Assembly: GCA_965218795.1 (NCBI GenBank) | Contig: OZ244653.1 | Location: forward strand, 4,352,001 to 4,416,000 | Length of the DNA: 64,000 nt | Reading direction: 5' to 3' | DNA from: a bacterium | GTDB lineage: Bacteria; UBA8248; JACPRG01; G963555815 | Shown: positions 55,519 through 62,194 of the stretch, piece by piece | Numbering within the stretch: the stretch's first letter is position 1 | Layout of the letters: each line of letters opens with the position of its first letter | The notes under the pieces: model-generated | The model's input: the letters and a program-made list of their open reading frames with translations, nothing else | Told to the model about the DNA's origin: nothing | The model's database searches: none | Position numbers and translations under genes: made by a program

Positions 55519-56544
55519 TTACATTGCCTTGTCGCCCAGGGCGGCCTTAATGGCGGGCCACTGGGGGAGGAACCGGTTGGTGTACATGTCTCCCGTCGGA
55601 ACGCGTTTCTTCAGCTTCTGGAGCTTGGTGAGCAACTCGACGGTATTGTCCATTTTCTCGTGGTCCATGTATCCCAAGCCGTGCAGCCGGACTCCCTCGT
55701 CGAACATATACTCAGTATTGATGGCGAAGTGGTGGCGGATGATGGGCTTGCTCATCCCCGGGGCGTACTTGAGGAAGTTCTCGATGGCCTCGTCCGGGTG
55801 GAGGAGCGACCACCCAAAGGCCTCCATGACGGCCTTTACGGCATTGCGAACAAACTTGGGGTTGGACTCGATCGTGGCATCGCGGACGATGACGCCGTTG
55901 CTGTAAACTTTCACGCCCCAGTCTCCGTAGGAGAAATATCCGAGCTCCTTTCCAATCTTGGCGACCGCGATACGGAGTTGGGGTATCTCGGTGACATAGT
56001 AGAGGGCCACATCCTGCTTCCCGCTCAGGAAGGAGGGGAGGACCTGCCCATAACCGATGTTAATCCACTCGATGGTCTTATCGTCGAACCCGTTGGCGGC
56101 GGCAAAGGCCGGGAAAATGACGCGGACGGAGGTGGCTATCGGCGAGCCGATCGTAGCGCCTGCCAAGTCCTTGGGCGTCTTGTAGCCCTTATCTTTGAAG
56201 AAGACAGCGATCATGGGCGTCTTGGCGTGGATCATGGCCACTTCTTTGACCTTGACGTCGCTGTTGCCCCGCGCGTTGACCAGCGAACCGGCATCGGCGA
56301 ACCCGATAGGGGCAATCTTGCTGGCAACGTCCTTGATGGTTCTACCCGAACCGAAGCCCCGCTTGTACTCCACGTCCAGACCCACCTTCTTGTAGAAGCC
56401 CTTGTCCTGGGCTGCGAAGAAAGCCGCGTGTTTTCCATAGACGATCCAGTCCAGCAGGAAGGTGGTTTTTCCAGCGACGGCCTGCCCCGTCAGGCCCCCC
56501 GCCAAGAACAGAAATGCGGCGACGACGACCAAAAGCTTTTTCAT
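55519..56544 (-). CDS. NMT1/THI5-like ABC substrate-binding protein
   Basis: Signal peptide; LDW...G.HA.FF.A..KGFY...GLDV, TPKDL.G, YTNRF. Confidence 0.9.
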   Translation of the reverse strand: MKKLLVVVAAFLFLAGGLTGQAVAGKTTFLLDWIVYGKHAAFFAAQDKGFYKKVGLDVEYKRGFGSGRTIKDVASKIAPIGFADAGSLVNARGNSDVKVKEVAMIHAKTPMIAVFFKDKGYKTPKDLAGATIGSPIATSVRVIFPAFAAANGFDDKTIEWINIGYGQVLPSFLSGKQDVALYYVTEIPQLRIAVAKIGKELGYFSYGDWGVKVYSNGVIVRDATIESNPKFVRNAVKAVMEAFGWSLLHPDEAIENFLKYAPGMSKPIIRHHFAINTEYMFDEGVRLHGLGYMDHEKMDNTVELLTKLQKLKKRVPTGDMYTNRFLPQWPAIKAALGDKAM

Positions 56545-56675
56545 GTTTGCACCCCTTTGCCGGTGAGACGGAAATCCAATCCCGGAAAACCCTCTGCCGA
56601 CCTCCCGTTGACACCTGGTTGAACGGAAGTTTCCCATTTCAAATTCAGACAGCCCTCTATTGACCACTCATTGCT

Positions 56676-56714
56676 GTCTAACCCGATTAGACCCCTCTTT
56701 GCCGGGGCCGTCAA
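56676..56714 (-). promoter_or_regulatory. Putative sigma70 promoter with overlapping palindromic operator
   Basis: TTGACG-17 bp-TCTAAT on the minus strand; GTCTAA-N5-TTAGAC at 56676-56692. Confidence 0.5.
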
Positions 56715-56786
56715 GAGGCTGTCCCATTCTTAGTTGAAGGTTGAAAAAAAGAGGTGGCGGTTCACTCCTGCCGACTCGGTTAGAAT

Positions 56787-57323
56787 TGCCCTGCCCCCTT
56801 TCAAGGGAGTCCAGTTTATAAAAGAGTATTCCTGGATTGTAGAAGGAGGCGAAGGCTGGCCAGGAAGCGGTTTACGGCCGAGCCGATCATCATCAAGCTG
56901 CGAGAGGCGGAGGTGTCCCAGTCCCAAGGGAAGACGGTAGGCCAGGAGTGTAAGCAGATCGGGGGTGACTGAGCAGACCTACGACCGGTGGCGGAAGGCG
57001 TACGGGGGTCTGAGGATGGCCCAGGCCAAGCGTCTGAAGTCCTTGGAGAAGGAGAATGGCCGGCTGAAGAAGCTGGTGGCGGGTCTGTCTGTGGACAATC
57101 AGATTCTGAAGGAAGTCTCCTCGGGAAACTTCCAGGCCCGGCGAAGAGGAGAGGAGCCGTGGTATGGGTACGAGAGCGGTTCGGACCTGAGCGAGTCTGT
57201 GAGCGTCGGGCCTGCCGCGTGCTGGGACAGGCTCGATCGACCCAACGAAGAGTCCGACAGATTTCCAAGGAAGAGGGACAATCTGGTGCTCCGGATGGTA
57301 GAACTGGCCAGTCAGTATGGCCG
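56787..57323 (+). mobile_element. IS3 (IS407-group-like) element, 5' part, degenerate
   Basis: End TGCCCTGCCCCC; IIKLREAEV, TEQTYDRWRK.YGG, RLK.LEKEN.RLKKLV, VCERRACRVLGQ.RST. Confidence 0.85.
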
Positions 57324-57349
57324 TGTATGGACGCCCCCGTGAATGCAAG

Positions 57350-57560
57350 CGTTTTCTTCGGACAGTTCGGAGCAATGTGGTCAGGTGCAGTCGTGTATCC
57401 GGCCTTCTGATGCGGCGGGTCACACGCCGCGGGCCCGTATGGAGATGCGCGGACCAGGTCCAAATCGGTACGGCGAGCTCGAGGGCTCTTGGCCATACCC
57501 TAGGTTTTCCCGATCCCGTCTCGTTGACCGTTGTCCCTTACCCGTCCTCCGACCTGCTCA
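57350..57560 (-). ncRNA. Putative bridge/seek RNA of the IS110 element; boundaries approximate
   Basis: Non-coding end with 8- and 9-nt matches to both target strands flanking a hairpin, plus donor-junction matches. Confidence 0.75.
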
Positions 57561-57590
57561 CATGTCCGACGTCATCCGCGCGCCTGTCGC

Positions 57591-58615
57591 TCAGACGGCC
57601 GGCGCCGGCTCCCGATAGACCGCTTTCTTCGTCATCAACGCCCAGGCGGTCCGCGCCATTCGATTCGCCAGCGCCACCGCGACCAGCATCCGCGGCTTGC
57701 GCGCCAGCATCCGAGCCAGCCATGAGCCTGCCGGCGCACCGCGCCAGGCCGCCCAACGGACCACCGCCATCGCGCCCGTGATCAACAGCCGCCTGACATC
57801 GCGCTGGCCCATCTTCGATATCTTGCCCAGCCGCGGCTTGCCTCCGGTGGAGTTCTGCCGCGGGACAAGCCCGAGCCAGGCCGAGAAGTCACGGCCGCGC
57901 CGGAAGCTTTCCATCGGCGGCGCGAAGGCCTGGATCGCCATCGCACTGATCGACCCGATCCCCGGGATGGTCATCAGACGTCTCGCCTCTTCGTCCTGGC
58001 GCGCACCCGTGTGGAGTTGCCTGTCCAACTCCCGAATCTTCTCGTTCAGGCCGGCAATCTGATCAAGCAGAACACCGCCCAGCTCGCGGACCGCCTCGGG
58101 CAGCCCCGAGCCCGGCTCTGCAAGGGCCAACGCCAGCCGGCCCACATACGCCAGTCCCTACGGAGCGATGACCCCGAACTCCGCCAAGTGGCCCCGTAGC
58201 GCGTTGATGGTCTGCGTGCGCTGGCGCACCAGCAAATCGCGCGTGCGGAACAGCATCCCGTGGGCCTGCTGGCCCTCCGTCTTCACGGCCACAAAGCGCA
58301 TGGTCGGGCGAGAGGCCGCCTCGCAGATCGCCTCCGCCTCCGCGGCGTCGTTCTTGTGACGCTTGACGAAGGGTTTCACATAGACCGGCGGCATGACTTC
58401 ACCTCATGGCCAAGCTTGCCGATCTCACGACCCCAATAGTGCGCGCTCGCACATGCCTCCATCGCAACCAGACAGCGTGGGTGCGAGGCCAGAAAGTCCA
58501 GCACTTTCCCCCTGGTCAGCTTCTTGCGGAATGCAACCGATCCGTCCGTCCGCGCACCGTGCAGTTGAAAGCCTTGTTTCGCCAAATCGATGCCGATGAT
58601 GTTCACTTGTTCCAT
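57591..58615 (-). pseudogene. IS110 DEDD recombinase with frameshifts near 58397 and 58160
   Basis: IGIDLAK, VAMEAC, KND..EAEAI, IPGIG, SAWLGLVP...STGG, ISK.G...RRLL; split over three ORFs. Confidence 0.92.
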
Positions 58616-58695
58616 GGACGCTTCCTCCTTCAGGGGTTGAACACGACACCACCTTGCCACAACGTGATGCCGTCGGGAGGGGGCGTCCACCCCAT

Positions 58696-59020
58696 CGGTA
58701 CGGCTACCGGAGGATCACGGCGATTCTTCGCCTTAGAGGGGTGGAAGGTGAACCCCATAGGGAGTGGAAAGGCTTTGGAGACAGGAAGGGCTGAAGGTCC
58801 CGTCCAGACAGCCGAAACGAAGGAGACTGTGGCTCCATGACGGGTCCTGCGTGCGCCTGAGACCGACTCATCGGAACCATGTCTGGAGCTATGCCTTCAT
58901 GCATGAGCGTACCCAAAAGGGGAGGGCTTTCCGGCTGCTGACCATTTGGATGCGTACAGCCGGGAATGTTGTTCCATTGATGCCCCAAGGCAGATGAATC
59001 ACCAGGATGTGCTGGAAAGG
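58696..59020 (+). mobile_element. IS3 element, 3' part, truncated
   Basis: RYGYRRITA.LR.EGWKVN, ERLWRQEGLKVP..Q.KRRRL, NHVWSY. Confidence 0.85.
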
Positions 59021-59135
59021 ACCCGACGAAATCTCCAGGTTGATGGAGAATCTAGGTAAGACTAGCCGGGCGTGTTAACGAAAAAGCGAATGAACGCTTT
59101 CGTCGCTTCTCTTCTTCGAATACCATCGTCGGGCT

Positions 59136-59893
59136 TCAACCTTTTCCGTCATTGCCCAGGACGTCACAAGACGCCAATAACTGTTTTGCAATAGCTTCCG
59201 CCGGCACTCGGACCCATTCCTGGTGTACAAACGTGAATGCGAGCATATGTACGAGAGTGAACAAGCAGCCGGCCCATGTGGGCTTATCGATAGCCTGGAG
59301 CATGATGTAGCGTCGCCCTTCCATGAGACGGCTATGGCAGCCACTATGGCTGCAATGACCAAACCGTCGACAAGAAGTGCAAGCGGTTTGAGCGCCCATA
59401 TATTTCGCCGAAAGCCGTAGTTGACGTTCTCCTCGAAGATGAGCCGGAACCTCTCGCGATCCGTCACTTGAGCTAGCAGCCAAGCCGTGGCACTCTCGTA
59501 TCCTTCGTCGGCCTTTGTTGGAGACCTCTTTTCGTCTTGCGGCGTCGCCAGCTTCAGTTGGGGAACGTTGCGCTCCAAAAATGCCCGATACCGATCCTTT
59601 GCCGCCGTCGGGATGCGCGCATCACGATGCCGTAGCATCACTACGGACGGCTTCCCGCCCCACGCTTGAAACAGGTTCGGTTCAAGTGCTTTCCCTCGAT
59701 CCCGCCCAAACTGCGTCAACCACGTTGCGCCACCGCAATAAACCACCAATCCGATGACGGCCGCCCACGTTGACTGAAATTCTGGAACAAGAAGCGCGAA
59801 GACAACCAAGATGGGCAGCAGGGTCAGAAGCGCTGGCTGAAGCCGGGCCTTCCGATTGTAGGGGTCGCTGATGAGTGTTTCGATGTTGAGCAT
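59136..59893 (-). pseudogene. Multi-TM membrane protein, last gene of the MBL/E2-E1-JAB operon; frameshift near 59310
   Basis: D.YN.KARL.PA, EN.NYGFRRN; final TM helix and stop lie in ORF 59136..59483. Confidence 0.65.
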
Positions 59894-62194
59894 TTAGGCG
59901 CTCCCAACAGCAGCGTCTGTTGCATCAGCAAGAAGCGCATGAATAGCGGCCGGCGTTTGGATCAACAGAATTGCCGGCGTCAGGCGTGCTACCGATACTG
60001 CGGTTGCCGTCGAGCGATCCATCGGGGATGGGTCACTGGGAGAAAGATGACTGTGCCAAGTGCCAAGGCAATAGAGCGACCAACCGCTTGACTCCGAATA
60101 GGCTTTTAGACGTTGGCGAAGCCCTTTCGTCCCGAGGACAAACTCACTCGCGGAGCGGGTACTATCCTCAGGCGCTTCCAGTACATCAACCACATGGAAG
60201 GTGTGGGACACTTCTGACAATCGTCCAACGAGCACGCCGCCGGTCTCGACCTGGGGCCGGTTCGCAGTTTCCTCCTGGATTTTTGCCAGTGCACGCGAGT
60301 GAATGCGAACGCGCCAGGCTTCTCCATTGATTGTGCCAACTTCGGTCACCGGAGGGACTTTGTGTGCGCGCCACTTGAGACCAATCTCGCGTTCGGACAG
60401 CTGACCTAAAAGGACTTCACCGCTGTCCCCAGGGAGGCCGTCGCGTTGCTTTCCCAACAGGTATTCGGACATGCCGGCCGCGAAAAGCGAAAGCCGTCCA
60501 TCGGACATGGTCATCGTCAGGGAGCCGCAGCCTTGGCCGAGAGCCTGCCGGGATGCCGTGTCATCGGCTCCAAATATGAGTGACGCCATAGTCGCGTCCT
60601 CCCGAATGAGGGCGTAGCACTCTGCCATGAGGTCGCCGGTGTTAGGGTTGCGCTCAGGTCCCTCGACAGTGACCATCCCGACGGCGCCGCCAGCGAATAG
60701 GGATGTTTCGATCACGCGGGCAGGCAGCCGGTTATTTGAGGCAAGCGCTTCTCGGACAACAAGCGATGCGGTTATGTTTACAACTGCCCACGACCGCTTC
60801 GACCAGGGACGGCTGACCTTGCATTTAGACTCCAAGATTCTCACGGCGTTCGCAAGGATCGGCGTTGCTTCCTGTTCAAGTCCATGTAATGCCCCGCACA
60901 GCGACCGGGCTTTGGCATCCATCCAGAGGAGCTGCATATCCCCCGTCGTGGGGATGAGCGCATGCCGCGCCGCGTTGTGCGGCGTCATCGACGACTGGTC
61001 GATGACAACCTCGGGGCCGTTCCCGGCGCGCGCGAGATGGAGCGCCAACTTGGATCCCAGACTATCGGCACCAATCAGTGTCCACCGTGGCCGTTCGGAA
61101 GTTGCCGCGTGGCCTGCCATCTGGGCGAGGAGGGCGCGGGTTATCGCATTGCGATGTGCGGCCGGTCGCACTGGTGTCGCGCCATCATCAGAAGACAAGT
61201 CGGGCGAGTAAATGTCCATGACATACGGGCACAACTCGATGGGACTCTGGCTGCCGATAACCTTGTAAGGTCGACGCGCCAAAAGCACCACGGCGAGCGG
61301 GAATGGCCCCATCTTGGAAACTCTGGATAGGCATCGCTTGAGCCACTTGAGCCCGTTATCGAGTTCAGCGGCACAGCCATAGAGCTTAGCGCGATCTCGA
61401 AGCTCATCGACATTGGTTACGGCTTCGGGAAGGTATGTATCGCAGACAATCAACTTGCCAGACGGCTGTTTTCCAGGCCACACGACCATTGCCAGCGACC
61501 GGCCGTGTCGTAGTTGGGCGTCCTTGCCAACCGCCGCTTCTCTGAAGATACTCGGTACGGTTTTGCGGTTGATTTGAGGGATTACGGTTTTAATCTGGCC
61601 GTGAATGGCGCCCAATGCGCCGTTAGTGACAAGTCGCAAGTAATCGAGTTCAAAGAAACTGTATCCGCCGTCACGGTTCACCAATCCGCGCAGCCCTTCG
61701 GCGTCGGCGATGAGGTCATCTTCGAAGCTATCACGCCGAACAGGTTCCCAACCTTGTTTCGGGTCGATGAGTGTGCCCATGGCTGCACGTTCAAGCCAAA
61801 CTGCGGTCTGATTTAGGATGCCGGCTAACCCTTCCAGCTGGAGCAGTTCGGCCAGGTTGCCATCGTAGAGGCAGGGCACGGGCCGCCCATCCGTCAACCA
61901 CGGCTGCATGTGTGGCAGATTCCGGTTGAAGTCAGGGCGCAGCGATACTTCGGGTGGGTCAAGCGGGAATCCACTCGGAAAGTCGAAGCGCACGACCTCC
62001 TGAAGCCTGACACCCGATGGACTCGAGCCCTGCCGCTTCCAGCGGCTTGGTAGGTGCACGTCGAACGTCACGTCCACCGCGGTTGTCCCAGTCACTTTGT
62101 CAAAGGATGGAATCCCGACCAGAGATACGGCAGGATGGTCGGACACCAGAGCCAGCGCTCGCAAGATCGTTTTACTGGGCCGGACGTCCGCCAT
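59894..62194 (-). CDS. Prokaryotic E2-E1(ThiF)-JAB fusion protein
   Basis: E2: FP..FP..PP.V.LR.DF...PH..PCLY; E1: IGADSLGS, HN.ARH, GCGS; JAB: ETGG..WHSH..PS..D. Confidence 0.88.
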   Translation of the reverse strand: MADVRPSKTILRALALVSDHPAVSLVGIPSFDKVTGTTAVDVTFDVHLPSRWKRQGSSPSGVRLQEVVRFDFPSGFPLDPPEVSLRPDFNRNLPHMQPWLTDGRPVPCLYDGNLAELLQLEGLAGILNQTAVWLERAAMGTLIDPKQGWEPVRRDSFEDDLIADAEGLRGLVNRDGGYSFFELDYLRLVTNGALGAIHGQIKTVIPQINRKTVPSIFREAAVGKDAQLRHGRSLAMVVWPGKQPSGKLIVCDTYLPEAVTNVDELRDRAKLYGCAAELDNGLKWLKRCLSRVSKMGPFPLAVVLLARRPYKVIGSQSPIELCPYVMDIYSPDLSSDDGATPVRPAAHRNAITRALLAQMAGHAATSERPRWTLIGADSLGSKLALHLARAGNGPEVVIDQSSMTPHNAARHALIPTTGDMQLLWMDAKARSLCGALHGLEQEATPILANAVRILESKCKVSRPWSKRSWAVVNITASLVVREALASNNRLPARVIETSLFAGGAVGMVTVEGPERNPNTGDLMAECYALIREDATMASLIFGADDTASRQALGQGCGSLTMTMSDGRLSLFAAGMSEYLLGKQRDGLPGDSGEVLLGQLSEREIGLKWRAHKVPPVTEVGTINGEAWRVRIHSRALAKIQEETANRPQVETGGVLVGRLSEVSHTFHVVDVLEAPEDSTRSASEFVLGTKGLRQRLKAYSESSGWSLYCLGTWHSHLSPSDPSPMDRSTATAVSVARLTPAILLIQTPAAIHALLADATDAAVGSA

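What the first reader, a model, noticed from the sequence alone, without database searches (positions are those of the whole stretch)
57315..58704. IS110/IS1111 element whose non-coding end carries guides to both strands of its target, a conserved IS3 transposase motif
Seen: removing 57324-58695 plus one CG rebuilds CAGTATGGC-CG-GTACGGCTAC, the QYGRYGY codons of the host IS3 OrfB. Inside the element, CGGTACGGC (57466-57474) equals core plus right flank, and GGCCATAC (57491-57498) is the reverse complement of the left flank GTATGGCC (57315-57322). A GAGC..GCTC hairpin (57475-57488) lies between them. Established: IS110/IS1111 recombinases use a bridge/seek RNA whose target loop pairs with both target strands, and some are known to target other mobile elements. 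Inference: this element is programmed to insert into and disable IS3-family elements, and gives a natural guide/target/recombinase set with a CG core.
Basis: partly seen in the sequence, partly recalled or inferred. Interest (0 to 1): 0.85.

Follow-up and report, generated by a model that had tools for sequence, protein, structure and literature searches.

The report
Dead RNA-guided IS inside an IS3
A decayed IS1111-type insertion sequence sits precisely inside the transposase gene of an IS3 element, and its non-coding tail carries two short guides matching both strands of that site, as the published bridge/seekRNA mechanism predicts, so it is a clear but ordinary new member of a known kind.

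Summary
Window 57324-58695 (minus strand) is a 1372-bp IS1111-type element with CG at both junctions. It splits the QYGRYGY codons of an IS3 orfB, and other IS3 copies in the genome have the site uninterrupted. Its recombinase gene carries one frameshift and one in-frame stop.

The 267-nt non-coding region (NCR) downstream of the gene holds GTATGGCC (57498-57491) and GCCGTACCG (57474-57466) either side of a conserved hairpin. [quoted passage not shown]

Relatives 76-95% identical occur in 19 other genomes. Exactly these two blocks are hypervariable and follow each copy's flanks (17 guide pairs; 0 of 20000 permutations as good). A third block equals the tip of the element's right end (RE) in 24 of 24 NCRs, so the RNA looks like a two-loop bridge RNA.

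Novelty is low. RNA guidance in IS1111 elements is published, and so is an IS110-family element (ISEc21) that targets IS3 transposase codons.

Relatives home into an IS66 terminal repeat and into a sibling's own guide-RNA gene. At targets with a CA core, the left junction reads CG and the right reads CA.

The parts
56787..57323 (+). Host IS3-family element, left part: orfA and the 5' part of orfB up to the QYGR codons
   Evidence: HTH_Tnp_1 hit. 89% identity to uninterrupted 1272-bp IS3 copies of the same genome. An intact copy has orfA HTH_Tnp_1 and orfB HTH_21 plus rve.
57322..57323 (.). CG copy at the RE junction of the inserted element
   Evidence: Reading. 2-nt overlap of flank matches in empty sites.
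57324..58695 (-). IS1111-type (IS110 family) insertion sequence, 1372 bp
   Evidence: Full-length relatives at 76-95% identity share exactly these ends. Precise empty sites.
57328..57338 (.). Subterminal inverted repeat, RE arm. 57324-57327 is the 4-nt terminal extension.
   Evidence: 11 nt, 100% complementary to 58679-58689 (pair I4).
57343..57348 (-). TTGCAT, a possible -35 of a promoter completed only in the circle junction. 17 nt further on, CACGAT spans RE-CG-LE.
   Evidence: Junction printed. GCTTGCA is near-invariant in the 24 NCRs. This is inference by analogy with published IS110/IS1111 junction promoters (PMC11187229, section 4).
57391..57400 (-). Donor (RE) guide GGATACACGA: identical to the RE tip plus CG plus the first base of the element's left end (LE)
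   Evidence: The 5 nt before CG equal the last 5 nt of RE in 24 of 24 NCRs, across 5 different RE tips.
57401..57435 (-). Inner stem-loop of the donor loop (GGCC/GGCC closing a GCGGC/GCCGC hairpin)
   Evidence: Helices 6 and 7 are 100% and 99.2% paired. Pair 173-208 is GC 19, AU 3, GU 2.
57436..57444 (-). Candidate donor (LE) guide CTCCATACG
   Evidence: Near-invariant. It can pair with CG+ATGGGG of LE only with one bulged A and one G-U. There is no consistent covariation. This is inference.
57451..57458 (-). 3' strand of the stem that closes the target loop. It pairs with 57509-57516.
   Evidence: Helix 2 is 100% paired and 2 pairs have compensatory changes.
57464..57474 (-). B guide GCCGTACCG (57474-57466), identical to left flank plus CG and so complementary to the bottom strand. 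It is followed by AT, the first two bases of LE.
   Evidence: 9 of 9 contiguous in the window. The block covaries with left flanks across relatives.
57475..57488 (-). Conserved inner hairpin GAGC-loop-GCTC between the two guides
   Evidence: Three pairs invariant in 24 of 24.
57491..57498 (-). [quoted passage not shown]
   Evidence: 8 of 8 in the window. The block covaries with right flanks across relatives.
57509..57516 (-). 5' strand of the stem that closes the target loop
57591..58615 (-). Recombinase pseudogene. It is one base shorter than intact relatives at about 58395-58396 (frameshift after GHEVK) and has an in-frame TAG at 58160-58158.
   Evidence: ORF fragments. DEDD_Tnp_IS110 and Transposase_20 hits. 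Intact 341-aa relative P0001 scores 321.7 bits on NF033542.
58679..58689 (.). Subterminal inverted repeat, LE arm. 58690-58695 is the 6-nt terminal extension.
   Evidence: pair I4.
58696..59017 (+). Host IS3 right part, beginning with the second CG copy (58696-58697) and the RYGYRRI codons. The reading frame is itself disrupted further on.

Best explanation
Window 57324-58695 is a dead copy of an IS1111-group (IS110 family) insertion sequence. It once inserted by RNA-guided recombination into a 17-nt site (GCCGTAC-CG-GCCATAC on the transposase strand) inside orfB of an IS3-family element.

Shown here:
- The insertion is precise, with CG at both junctions.
- The recombinase family is established, as are an 11-bp subterminal inverted repeat and a long NCR downstream of the gene.
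- Two hypervariable blocks in an internal loop, flanked by conserved stems, track the right flank (by complementarity) and the left flank (by identity) across relatives.
- A third block tracks the element's own RE tip.

Inferred from published work on IS1111 seekRNAs and IS621 bridge RNA:
- The NCR is transcribed on the transposase strand.
- The RNA binds the recombinase. Its target loop pairs with both strands of the IS3 site and its donor loop with the RE-CG-LE circle junction.
- Strand exchange occurs at the core.

The consequence for the host IS3 copy is a split orfB upstream of its DDE (rve) domain.
For: - **Family.** PF01548 and PF02371 hit the fragments. The intact relative P0001 scores 321.7 bits against a cutoff of 140 on NF033542, 'IS110 family RNA-guided transposase', and hits both Pfam domains. 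The GLVPRQNSTG motif is read.
- **Anatomy.** The sTIR is 11 nt and perfect. The NCR is 267 nt downstream of the gene against 80 nt upstream.
- **Precise insertion.**
- **Guide order.** The top-strand guide lies 5' of the bottom-strand guide, as reported for IS1111 seekRNAs (PMC11187229, section 9).
- **Covariation.** There are 36 distinct places and 17 distinct guide pairs. The cognate T match averages 7.12 nt against 3.39 for 272 non-cognate pairings. Cognate B identity is 4.76 of 7 against 2.25. In each case 0 of 20000 permutations reach the observed sum.
- **Natural retargeting.** L030 and L059 lie in one genome. They have different guide blocks and correspondingly different flanks (T match 9 of 9 in each).
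- **Donor guide.** It equals the RE tip in 24 of 24 NCRs.
- **Structure.** 96.3% of cells are paired against 21-37% when partners are slid. 4 pairs show compensatory changes.
- **Strand.** G-U pairs (for example 41-265 UG in 24 of 24, 42-264 GU in 22 of 24) would be C-A on the other strand.
- **Chance in the window alone.** 13 of 200000.
Against: - No RNA evidence was obtainable. No RNA run is listed and only contigs could be laid.
- This copy cannot act: the recombinase has two lesions, and no other full copy is in the genome.
- Guide/flank agreement is imperfect in the family. 13 of 34 places with a right flank have a T match of 6 nt or less, including the closest relative L028 (T 4 contiguous, B 2 contiguous). 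L038, L060, L062 and L068 sit at non-cognate flanks.
- Structural covariation is thin because the sequences are close. One proposed helix (157-161/221-225) is only 76.7% paired.
- The LE guide needs a bulge and shows no clear covariation.
- The single-sequence fold is not better than shuffles (z = -1.03).
- No Rfam 15 family matches.
Confidence: 0.88

Rival explanations
1. The element is RNA-guided, but IS3 is not a recurrent target. One ancestral insertion produced an IS3::IS1111 composite. The composite then spread by IS3 transposition in trans, duplication or transfer, which would explain the same site being occupied in two genera.
For: - G004 has one full and two identically truncated copies (bases 1-160) at the same site, with near-identical flanks. 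This looks like copying of a composite.
- The exact guide-bearing 26-mer is found in only one other species genome, and 0 times in metagenome contigs. A junction 20-mer is also found 0 times.
- The other IS3 copies of the window's genome are empty.
Against: - Flanks are more diverged than the element between the two genomes: 88.4% over 536 nt and 93.5% over 324 nt, against 95.0% over 1373 nt.
- The two hosts are different IS3 subtypes at the site (CGGTACGGCTAC against CGATACGGGTAC).
- The window guides match the window site at 17 of 17 paired positions.
Confidence: 0.3
2. The internal copies of the target and end sequences act as DNA, not RNA. For example they could be protein-bound or DNA-paired sites that synapse with target and ends.
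For: Nothing here shows a transcript. Identity or complementarity to DNA can be read either way.
Against: - The blocks lie in internal loops closed by stems with compensatory changes and many G-U pairs, which only make sense on one RNA strand.
- For related IS1111 elements, NCR RNA co-purifies with the transposase and is required and reprogrammable (PMC11187229, abstract and sections 9, 10).
Confidence: 0.05
3. The matches are chance. A GC-rich hairpin has arms that happen to resemble a target that is itself a direct repeat.
For: The two blocks pair with each other in the single-sequence fold, and the two matches are not independent within the window.
Against: - 13 of 200000 random NCRs reach both matches.
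- Across 17 guide pairs, 0 of 20000 permutations reach the observed agreement.
- The one G-U in the arm pairing is exactly where the two flanks differ.
Confidence: 0.02

Closest known systems
IS1111-family elements with seekRNA (ISEc11, ISKpn4/ISPst6, ISPa11; Siddiquee et al. 2024, PMC11187229)
   Same: A DEDD recombinase of about 340 aa with the GL-P----(S/T)G motif. An 11-bp subterminal inverted repeat. The long NCR lies downstream of the gene. Two short segments match top then bottom target strand and overlap at the insertion point. Close relatives are naturally retargeted by replacement of these segments.
   Different: Terminal extensions here are 6 and 4 nt (CG not counted), where the paper gives 7 and 3 or 6 and 3. 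The target is IS3 orfB codons. A second loop that tracks the element's own RE tip is evident here, whereas the passages I read of that paper describe target matches only. The copy in the window is dead.
ISEc21 (IS110 group), which targets IS3-family transposase genes (PMC11187229, section 12)
   Same: An RNA-guided IS110-family element whose target is a conserved coding stretch of IS3-family transposases.
   Different: ISEc21 has an upstream NCR and the opposite guide order. [quoted passage not shown] I could not see its Supplementary Fig. 11.
IS621 bridge RNA (Durrant et al. 2024, PMC11208160; Hiraizumi et al. 2024, PMC11208158)
   Same: Two internal loops, each with one guide identical to the left side and one complementary to the right side. 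The core is included in the pairings. Durrant et al. predict bridge RNAs in the RE of 93.0% of IS1111s.
   Different: The RNA is at the other end of the element and the guide order within loops is reversed. The core is CG or C(G/A), not CT. The recombinase is only distantly similar (E 2e-11 to 8wt6 over the C-terminal part).
IS4321/IS5075, which target Tn21-family terminal repeats, and the attC-targeting IS1111 group (cited in PMC11187229 and PMC11208160; the original papers were not read)
   Same: IS1111 members that home into conserved sequences of other mobile elements. A relative here (L029 type) does the same to an IS66-family terminal repeat.
   Different: The host elements and sites differ.

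Membership tests
IS110 family, IS1111 group | N-terminal DEDD (RuvC-like) domain | tested here: met
   PF01548 hits window fragment 58161-58394 at E 3e-09 and intact relative P0001 at E 1.8e-15. The individual catalytic residues were not mapped.
IS110 family, IS1111 group | C-terminal Transposase_20 domain with the GL-P----(S/T)G motif | tested here: met
   PF02371 at E 6.5e-23. GLVPRQNSTG is read in the 57591..58145 ORF. The motif definition comes from PMC11187229, section 6.
IS110 family, IS1111 group | Curated family model NF033542 (IS110 family RNA-guided transposase) | tested here: met
   Relative P0001 scores 321.7 bits against a cutoff of 140. The window copy is fragmented and was not scored as a whole.
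IS110 family, IS1111 group | Subterminal inverted repeats of about 11-13 bp | tested here: met
   11 nt, 100% complementary, 57328-57338 with 58679-58689.
IS110 family, IS1111 group | Asymmetric terminal extensions of 7 (or 6) bp left and 3 bp right | tested here: inconclusive
   The extensions are 6 nt left and 4 nt right if CG is excluded. Assigning the CG changes the numbers, and neither assignment gives 7 + 3.
IS110 family, IS1111 group | Longer non-coding region downstream of the recombinase gene | tested here: met
   267 nt downstream (57324-57590) against 80 nt upstream (58616-58695).
IS110 family, IS1111 group | Site- and orientation-specific insertion without a target duplication beyond the shared core | tested here: met
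   Empty sites differ from the occupied site only by the element plus one CG.
seekRNA / bridge RNA | Guide segments to both target strands that covary with the flanks; top-strand guide 5' of bottom-strand guide in IS1111 types | tested here: met
   (0 of 20000 permutations for each guide). The order is read.
seekRNA / bridge RNA | Donor-binding loop that pairs with both element ends | tested here: inconclusive
   The RE-side guide is met in 24 of 24. The LE-side guide needs a bulge and shows no consistent covariation.
seekRNA / bridge RNA | The RNA is made, binds the recombinase and is required for movement | not testable with these tools
   No RNA holder is listed and only contigs could be laid.
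IS110/IS1111 | Circular intermediate with abutted ends that creates a promoter | not testable with these tools
   Only -35-like TTGCAT and, 17 nt on, CACGAT across the junction are seen. Each matches 3 of 6 consensus positions.
Rfam RNA families | Match to a curated covariance model | tested here: not met
   Scanning 56500-59500 at E up to 1 gave only an unrelated xrRNA match at E 0.18.

The most novel reading that the evidence does not exclude
This small clade of near-identical IS1111-type elements may be a natural hyperparasite series. The swapped guides direct them into other mobile elements: IS3 orfB, an IS66 terminal repeat, and the donor-guide segment of a sibling's own bridge-RNA gene.

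The clade also carries an in vivo footprint of strand exchange. Where the empty target core is CA (7 of 7 empty sites), the T guide carries UG while the B and donor guides keep CG. All 7 occupied places with both junctions read CG at the left junction and CA at the right.

That would mean either of two things. Only the first core base may be truly shared, with the crossover lying inside the dinucleotide. Or the core heteroduplex may always be fixed in favour of one exchanged strand. The second matches the first-strand product of the IS621 model if the IS1111 element is viewed in flipped orientation.
Probability: 0.25. Interest if true: 0.55.

Novelty: new member of a known kind. Interest (0 to 1): 0.35.

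Why it matters
For the window itself it matters little. It is a fossil of a mechanism published in 2024, and an IS110-family element targeting IS3 transposase codons is already in print.

The value lies in the relatives. There are 17 natural guide pairs on an almost constant scaffold (76-95% identity), several with intact recombinases and multiple copies. This gives a ready-made natural reprogramming series for IS1111-type bridge recombinases. It includes targets whose second core base differs from the donor's, with both junctions and empty sites readable.

The relatives also suggest that conserved sequences of other mobile elements are the favoured landing sites of this clade. That bears on how such elements persist without harming the host.

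Tried and rejected
- **Rfam**: nothing relevant.
- **Single-sequence fold**: not better than shuffles, and it pairs the two guides with each other. I rejected this in favour of the alignment-based structure.
- **My proposed outer helix of the donor loop** (columns 157-161 with 221-225): only 76.7% paired, so dropped.
- **RNAalifold's alternative** for the donor region (73-76 with 172-175, 80-83 with 162-165, 206-210 with 217-226) is not excluded. I preferred 172-175 with 206-209 because pair 173-208 shows 3 double changes. But 75-173 is also compatible (UG 21, UA 3).
- **Exact-pattern scans.** The guide 26-mer found 1 stretch in genome contigs, a contig whose length equals that of G004:C7, and 0 in metagenome contigs. 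A junction 20-mer found 0 in metagenome contigs.
- **Order-level genome search.** Only 7 genomes are held, and 2 have a match.
- **RNA evidence.** No RNA holder is listed.
- **Laying contigs of 4 runs**. It showed contigs that cross the RE junction without differences (for example 57219-57453). It also showed joints that skip the element; these fit the uninterrupted IS3 paralogues and so show no excision. Depth and gaps there mean nothing.
- **Plasmid search with the intact relative**. The best hits are about 70% identical and are called only 'IS110 family transposase', with no element name.
- **Literature searches** gave no paper on an IS1111-type element in the QYGRYGY codons of IS3, in an IS66 terminal repeat or in a sibling's NCR. 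This covers only those four searches and the listings shown.
- **Supplements are closed.** Supplementary Fig. 11 of PMC11187229 and the supplementary tables of PMC11208160 may bear on targets already catalogued.
Full report
**What is there.** The window between 56787 and about 59017 holds an IS3-family element on the plus strand. orfA has an HTH_Tnp_1 hit, and orfB has the RYGYRRI stretch of HTH_21. Intact 1272-bp copies elsewhere in the genome have orfA HTH_Tnp_1 and orfB HTH_21 plus rve.

This element is interrupted at 57324-58695 by 1372 bp that encode, on the minus strand, an IS110-family recombinase in three pieces.

In the window's own genome, the left and right host flanks each match many IS3 copies, and there the two matches overlap by exactly 2 nt. 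Ten uninterrupted sites are printed and a closer paralogue (94% over 1631 nt). The insertion is therefore precise, with CG present once in empty sites and at both junctions of the occupied one.

None of the empty copies has the exact site:
- Five read CAGTACGGC-CG-ATACGGCTAC, one change in each guide footprint.
- One (L014) differs in the T footprint only.

**State of the element.** An intact relative gives 341 aa. It scores 321.7 bits on NF033542, 'IS110 family RNA-guided transposase', and hits PF01548 and PF02371.

Against that relative, the window gene is one base short just after the GHEVK codons (about 58395-58396). It also has an in-frame TAG at 58160-58158. No second full copy exists in the genome: there is only a 173-nt LE fragment at 89% identity (L002) and a 56-nt piece.

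The host IS3 copy is also decayed. Its orfB frame is broken after the insertion point. It resembles the standard 1272-bp copies over only 858 bp.

The element has a perfect 11-bp subterminal inverted repeat. It has 80 nt upstream of the gene and a 267-nt non-coding region downstream. This is the IS1111 layout described by Siddiquee et al. (PMC11187229, sections 4 and 6).

**The guides.** Read on the transposase strand, the non-coding region contains GTATGGCC, a GAGC/GCTC hairpin and GCCGTACCG followed by AT.
- The second is identical to the left flank plus CG, so it is complementary to the bottom strand.
- The top-then-bottom order is the one reported for IS1111 seekRNAs (section 9).

In the window alone, both matches arise in 13 of 200000 random non-coding regions. 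They are not independent, because the target is a direct repeat and the two blocks pair with each other.

**Comparative test.** A DNA search of 61 genomes (relatives, own genome included) found matches in 20, mostly one genus of the same class. There were 29 full-length copies at 76-100% identity.

From all loci, a pattern-based extraction gave 36 distinct places, 26 of them with both flanks, and 17 distinct guide pairs.
- T block against right flank: the cognate longest match averages 7.12 nt, against 3.39 for 272 non-cognate pairings.
- B block against left flank: cognate identity at the 7 variable positions is 4.76, against 2.25.
- In each case 0 of 20000 permutations reach the observed sum.

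L030 and L059 lie in one genome. They have different blocks and correspondingly different flanks (T match 9 of 9 in each).

The agreement is not perfect. 13 of 34 places with a right flank have a T match of 6 nt or less. Four of these (the L029 type) are explained by a one-base bulge. Others (L028, L038, L040, L060, L062, L068) are real mismatches or non-cognate places.

**Structure and strand.** RNAalifold puts the two blocks in an internal loop. The loop is closed by an 8-bp stem (57516-57509 with 57458-57451) and holds the small hairpin between the blocks.

In my model, 96.3% of cells pair, against 21-37% when partners are slid. 4 pairs show double changes, and one helix I had proposed is weak. 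The many G-U pairs fit only the transposase strand.

A third block, GGATACACGA (57400-57391), equals the last 5 nt of RE plus CG plus the first LE base. It follows the five different RE tips in 24 of 24 regions.

A near-invariant CTCCATACG (57444-57436) could pair with CG plus the LE start, but only with a bulge. I treat that as inference.

The RNA thus resembles a two-loop bridge RNA. Durrant et al. predict such RNAs in the RE of 93.0% of IS1111s (PMC11208160, passage in section 12). No Rfam family matches, and no RNA data could be had.

**Is IS3 the programmed target?** The guides fit the occupied site at all 17 paired positions.

A second genus of the same family (G004) has a 95% identical copy at the same orfB position, plus two copies truncated at base 160. 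Its IS3 flanks are of another subtype and are more diverged (88.4% and 93.5%) than the element (95.0%). This favours at least two insertions. But the two truncated copies look like copying of a composite, and in G004 the guides fit poorly (one T mismatch, three B mismatches).

The fragment L002 in the window's genome has a non-IS3 left flank ending GGCGTACCG, and its guides are lost.

The exact guide string is otherwise absent from the collections scanned. Homing into IS3 is therefore supported, while repeated homing is only suggested. 'Disabling' follows from the position (HTH_21, upstream of rve), but no purpose is shown.

**Comparison with what is known.** RNA guidance, natural retargeting, and IS1111 members that home into other mobile elements are all published. 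[quoted passage not shown]

The present element is a new member with a new site in the same kind of host gene. It is not a new kind.

**Seen in the relatives.**
- The L029 type sits 7 bp inside the terminal repeat of a 3.3-kb IS66-family element. One copy of that element is occupied at both ends, and another at one end.
- L035 and L031 are inserted in the non-coding region of sibling elements, at the start of the sibling's RE guide. Their joined flanks rebuild a 272-nt region 91.5% identical to that of L038.
- For targets whose empty form has a CA core (7 of 7 empty sites), the T block carries UG while the B and donor blocks keep CG. All 7 occupied places with both junctions read CG on the left and CA on the right. 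L037 and L049 share flanks, and the four G035 places may not all be independent, because a copy inside an IS66 repeat could travel with it.

In IS621 the top strands are cut just after the core and exchanged first (PMC11208158, passages). The pattern here would match that first-strand product if the IS1111 element is viewed in the flipped orientation. It would equally fit a crossover inside the dinucleotide. I could not decide between these.

**Verdict.** This is a new member of a known kind. Interest is modest for the window itself and somewhat higher for the natural guide series in the relatives.

Noticed in passing
L097 (G035:C1:276150-279560); L029, L047, L058, L080: A relative of the element (85% identical) is inserted 7 bp inside the terminal inverted repeat of a 3.3-kb IS66-family element. 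That element has 24-bp repeats and a 772-aa DDE_Tnp_IS66 protein (E 2e-56). One IS66 copy carries the relative at both ends, another at one end only. The IS66 element also carries a 304-aa passenger with a DruA (Druantia) domain (E 1e-36).
   Followed up: partly
L035 (G030:C139) and L031 (G013:C139): Two family members are inserted into the non-coding region of a sibling element, exactly at the start of the sibling's RE (donor) guide. The joined flanks rebuild a complete 272-nt NCR (91.5% identical to L038). Their T guides match this site 9 of 9 (L035) and 7 contiguous with one bulge (L031).
   Followed up: partly
L029, L047, L057, L058, L036, L037, L049 (occupied); L080, L087, L088, L092, L093, L094, L096 (empty): Where the empty target core is CA, the occupied sites read CG at the left junction and CA at the right. 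The T guide encodes UG while the B and donor guides keep CG. Only the C of the 'CG core' is constant in targets.
   Followed up: partly
L060, L062, L063, L051, L061 (G037): Six near-identical copies in one genome carry two T-guide variants. Two copies (L060, L062) sit at the flank that fits the other variant, and each lacks one base at the RE junction.
   Followed up: no
L002 (own genome, G000:C1:3129925-3133098), about 1501-1680: A second copy of the element (89% identical) is cut off after 173 nt, where another IS3-like orfA/orfB begins. Its left flank is not IS3 but ends GGCGTACCG, one base from the window's B footprint.
   Followed up: partly
window 58396; runs X4, X5 (table 4): Contigs in two metagenome runs carry one extra base at the place where the window's recombinase gene is frameshifted. 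Unbroken close relatives probably exist in those samples.
   Followed up: no
L088, L092-L096 and right flanks of L036, L037, L049, L069, L071: The target of the L036/L037 type lies at the edge of a conserved stretch of more than 50 nt. This stretch recurs in five genomes next to unrelated genes (in L093, a 456-aa ORF that looked to me like a protease with Sel1-type repeats; no domain scan was run). It may be another repeat or small mobile element.
   Followed up: no
window 59894-62194 (minus): A 766-aa ORF lies just beyond the IS3 remnant. Parts of its translation reminded me of E2-like, E1-like and JAB-like modules. No domain search was run.
   Followed up: no
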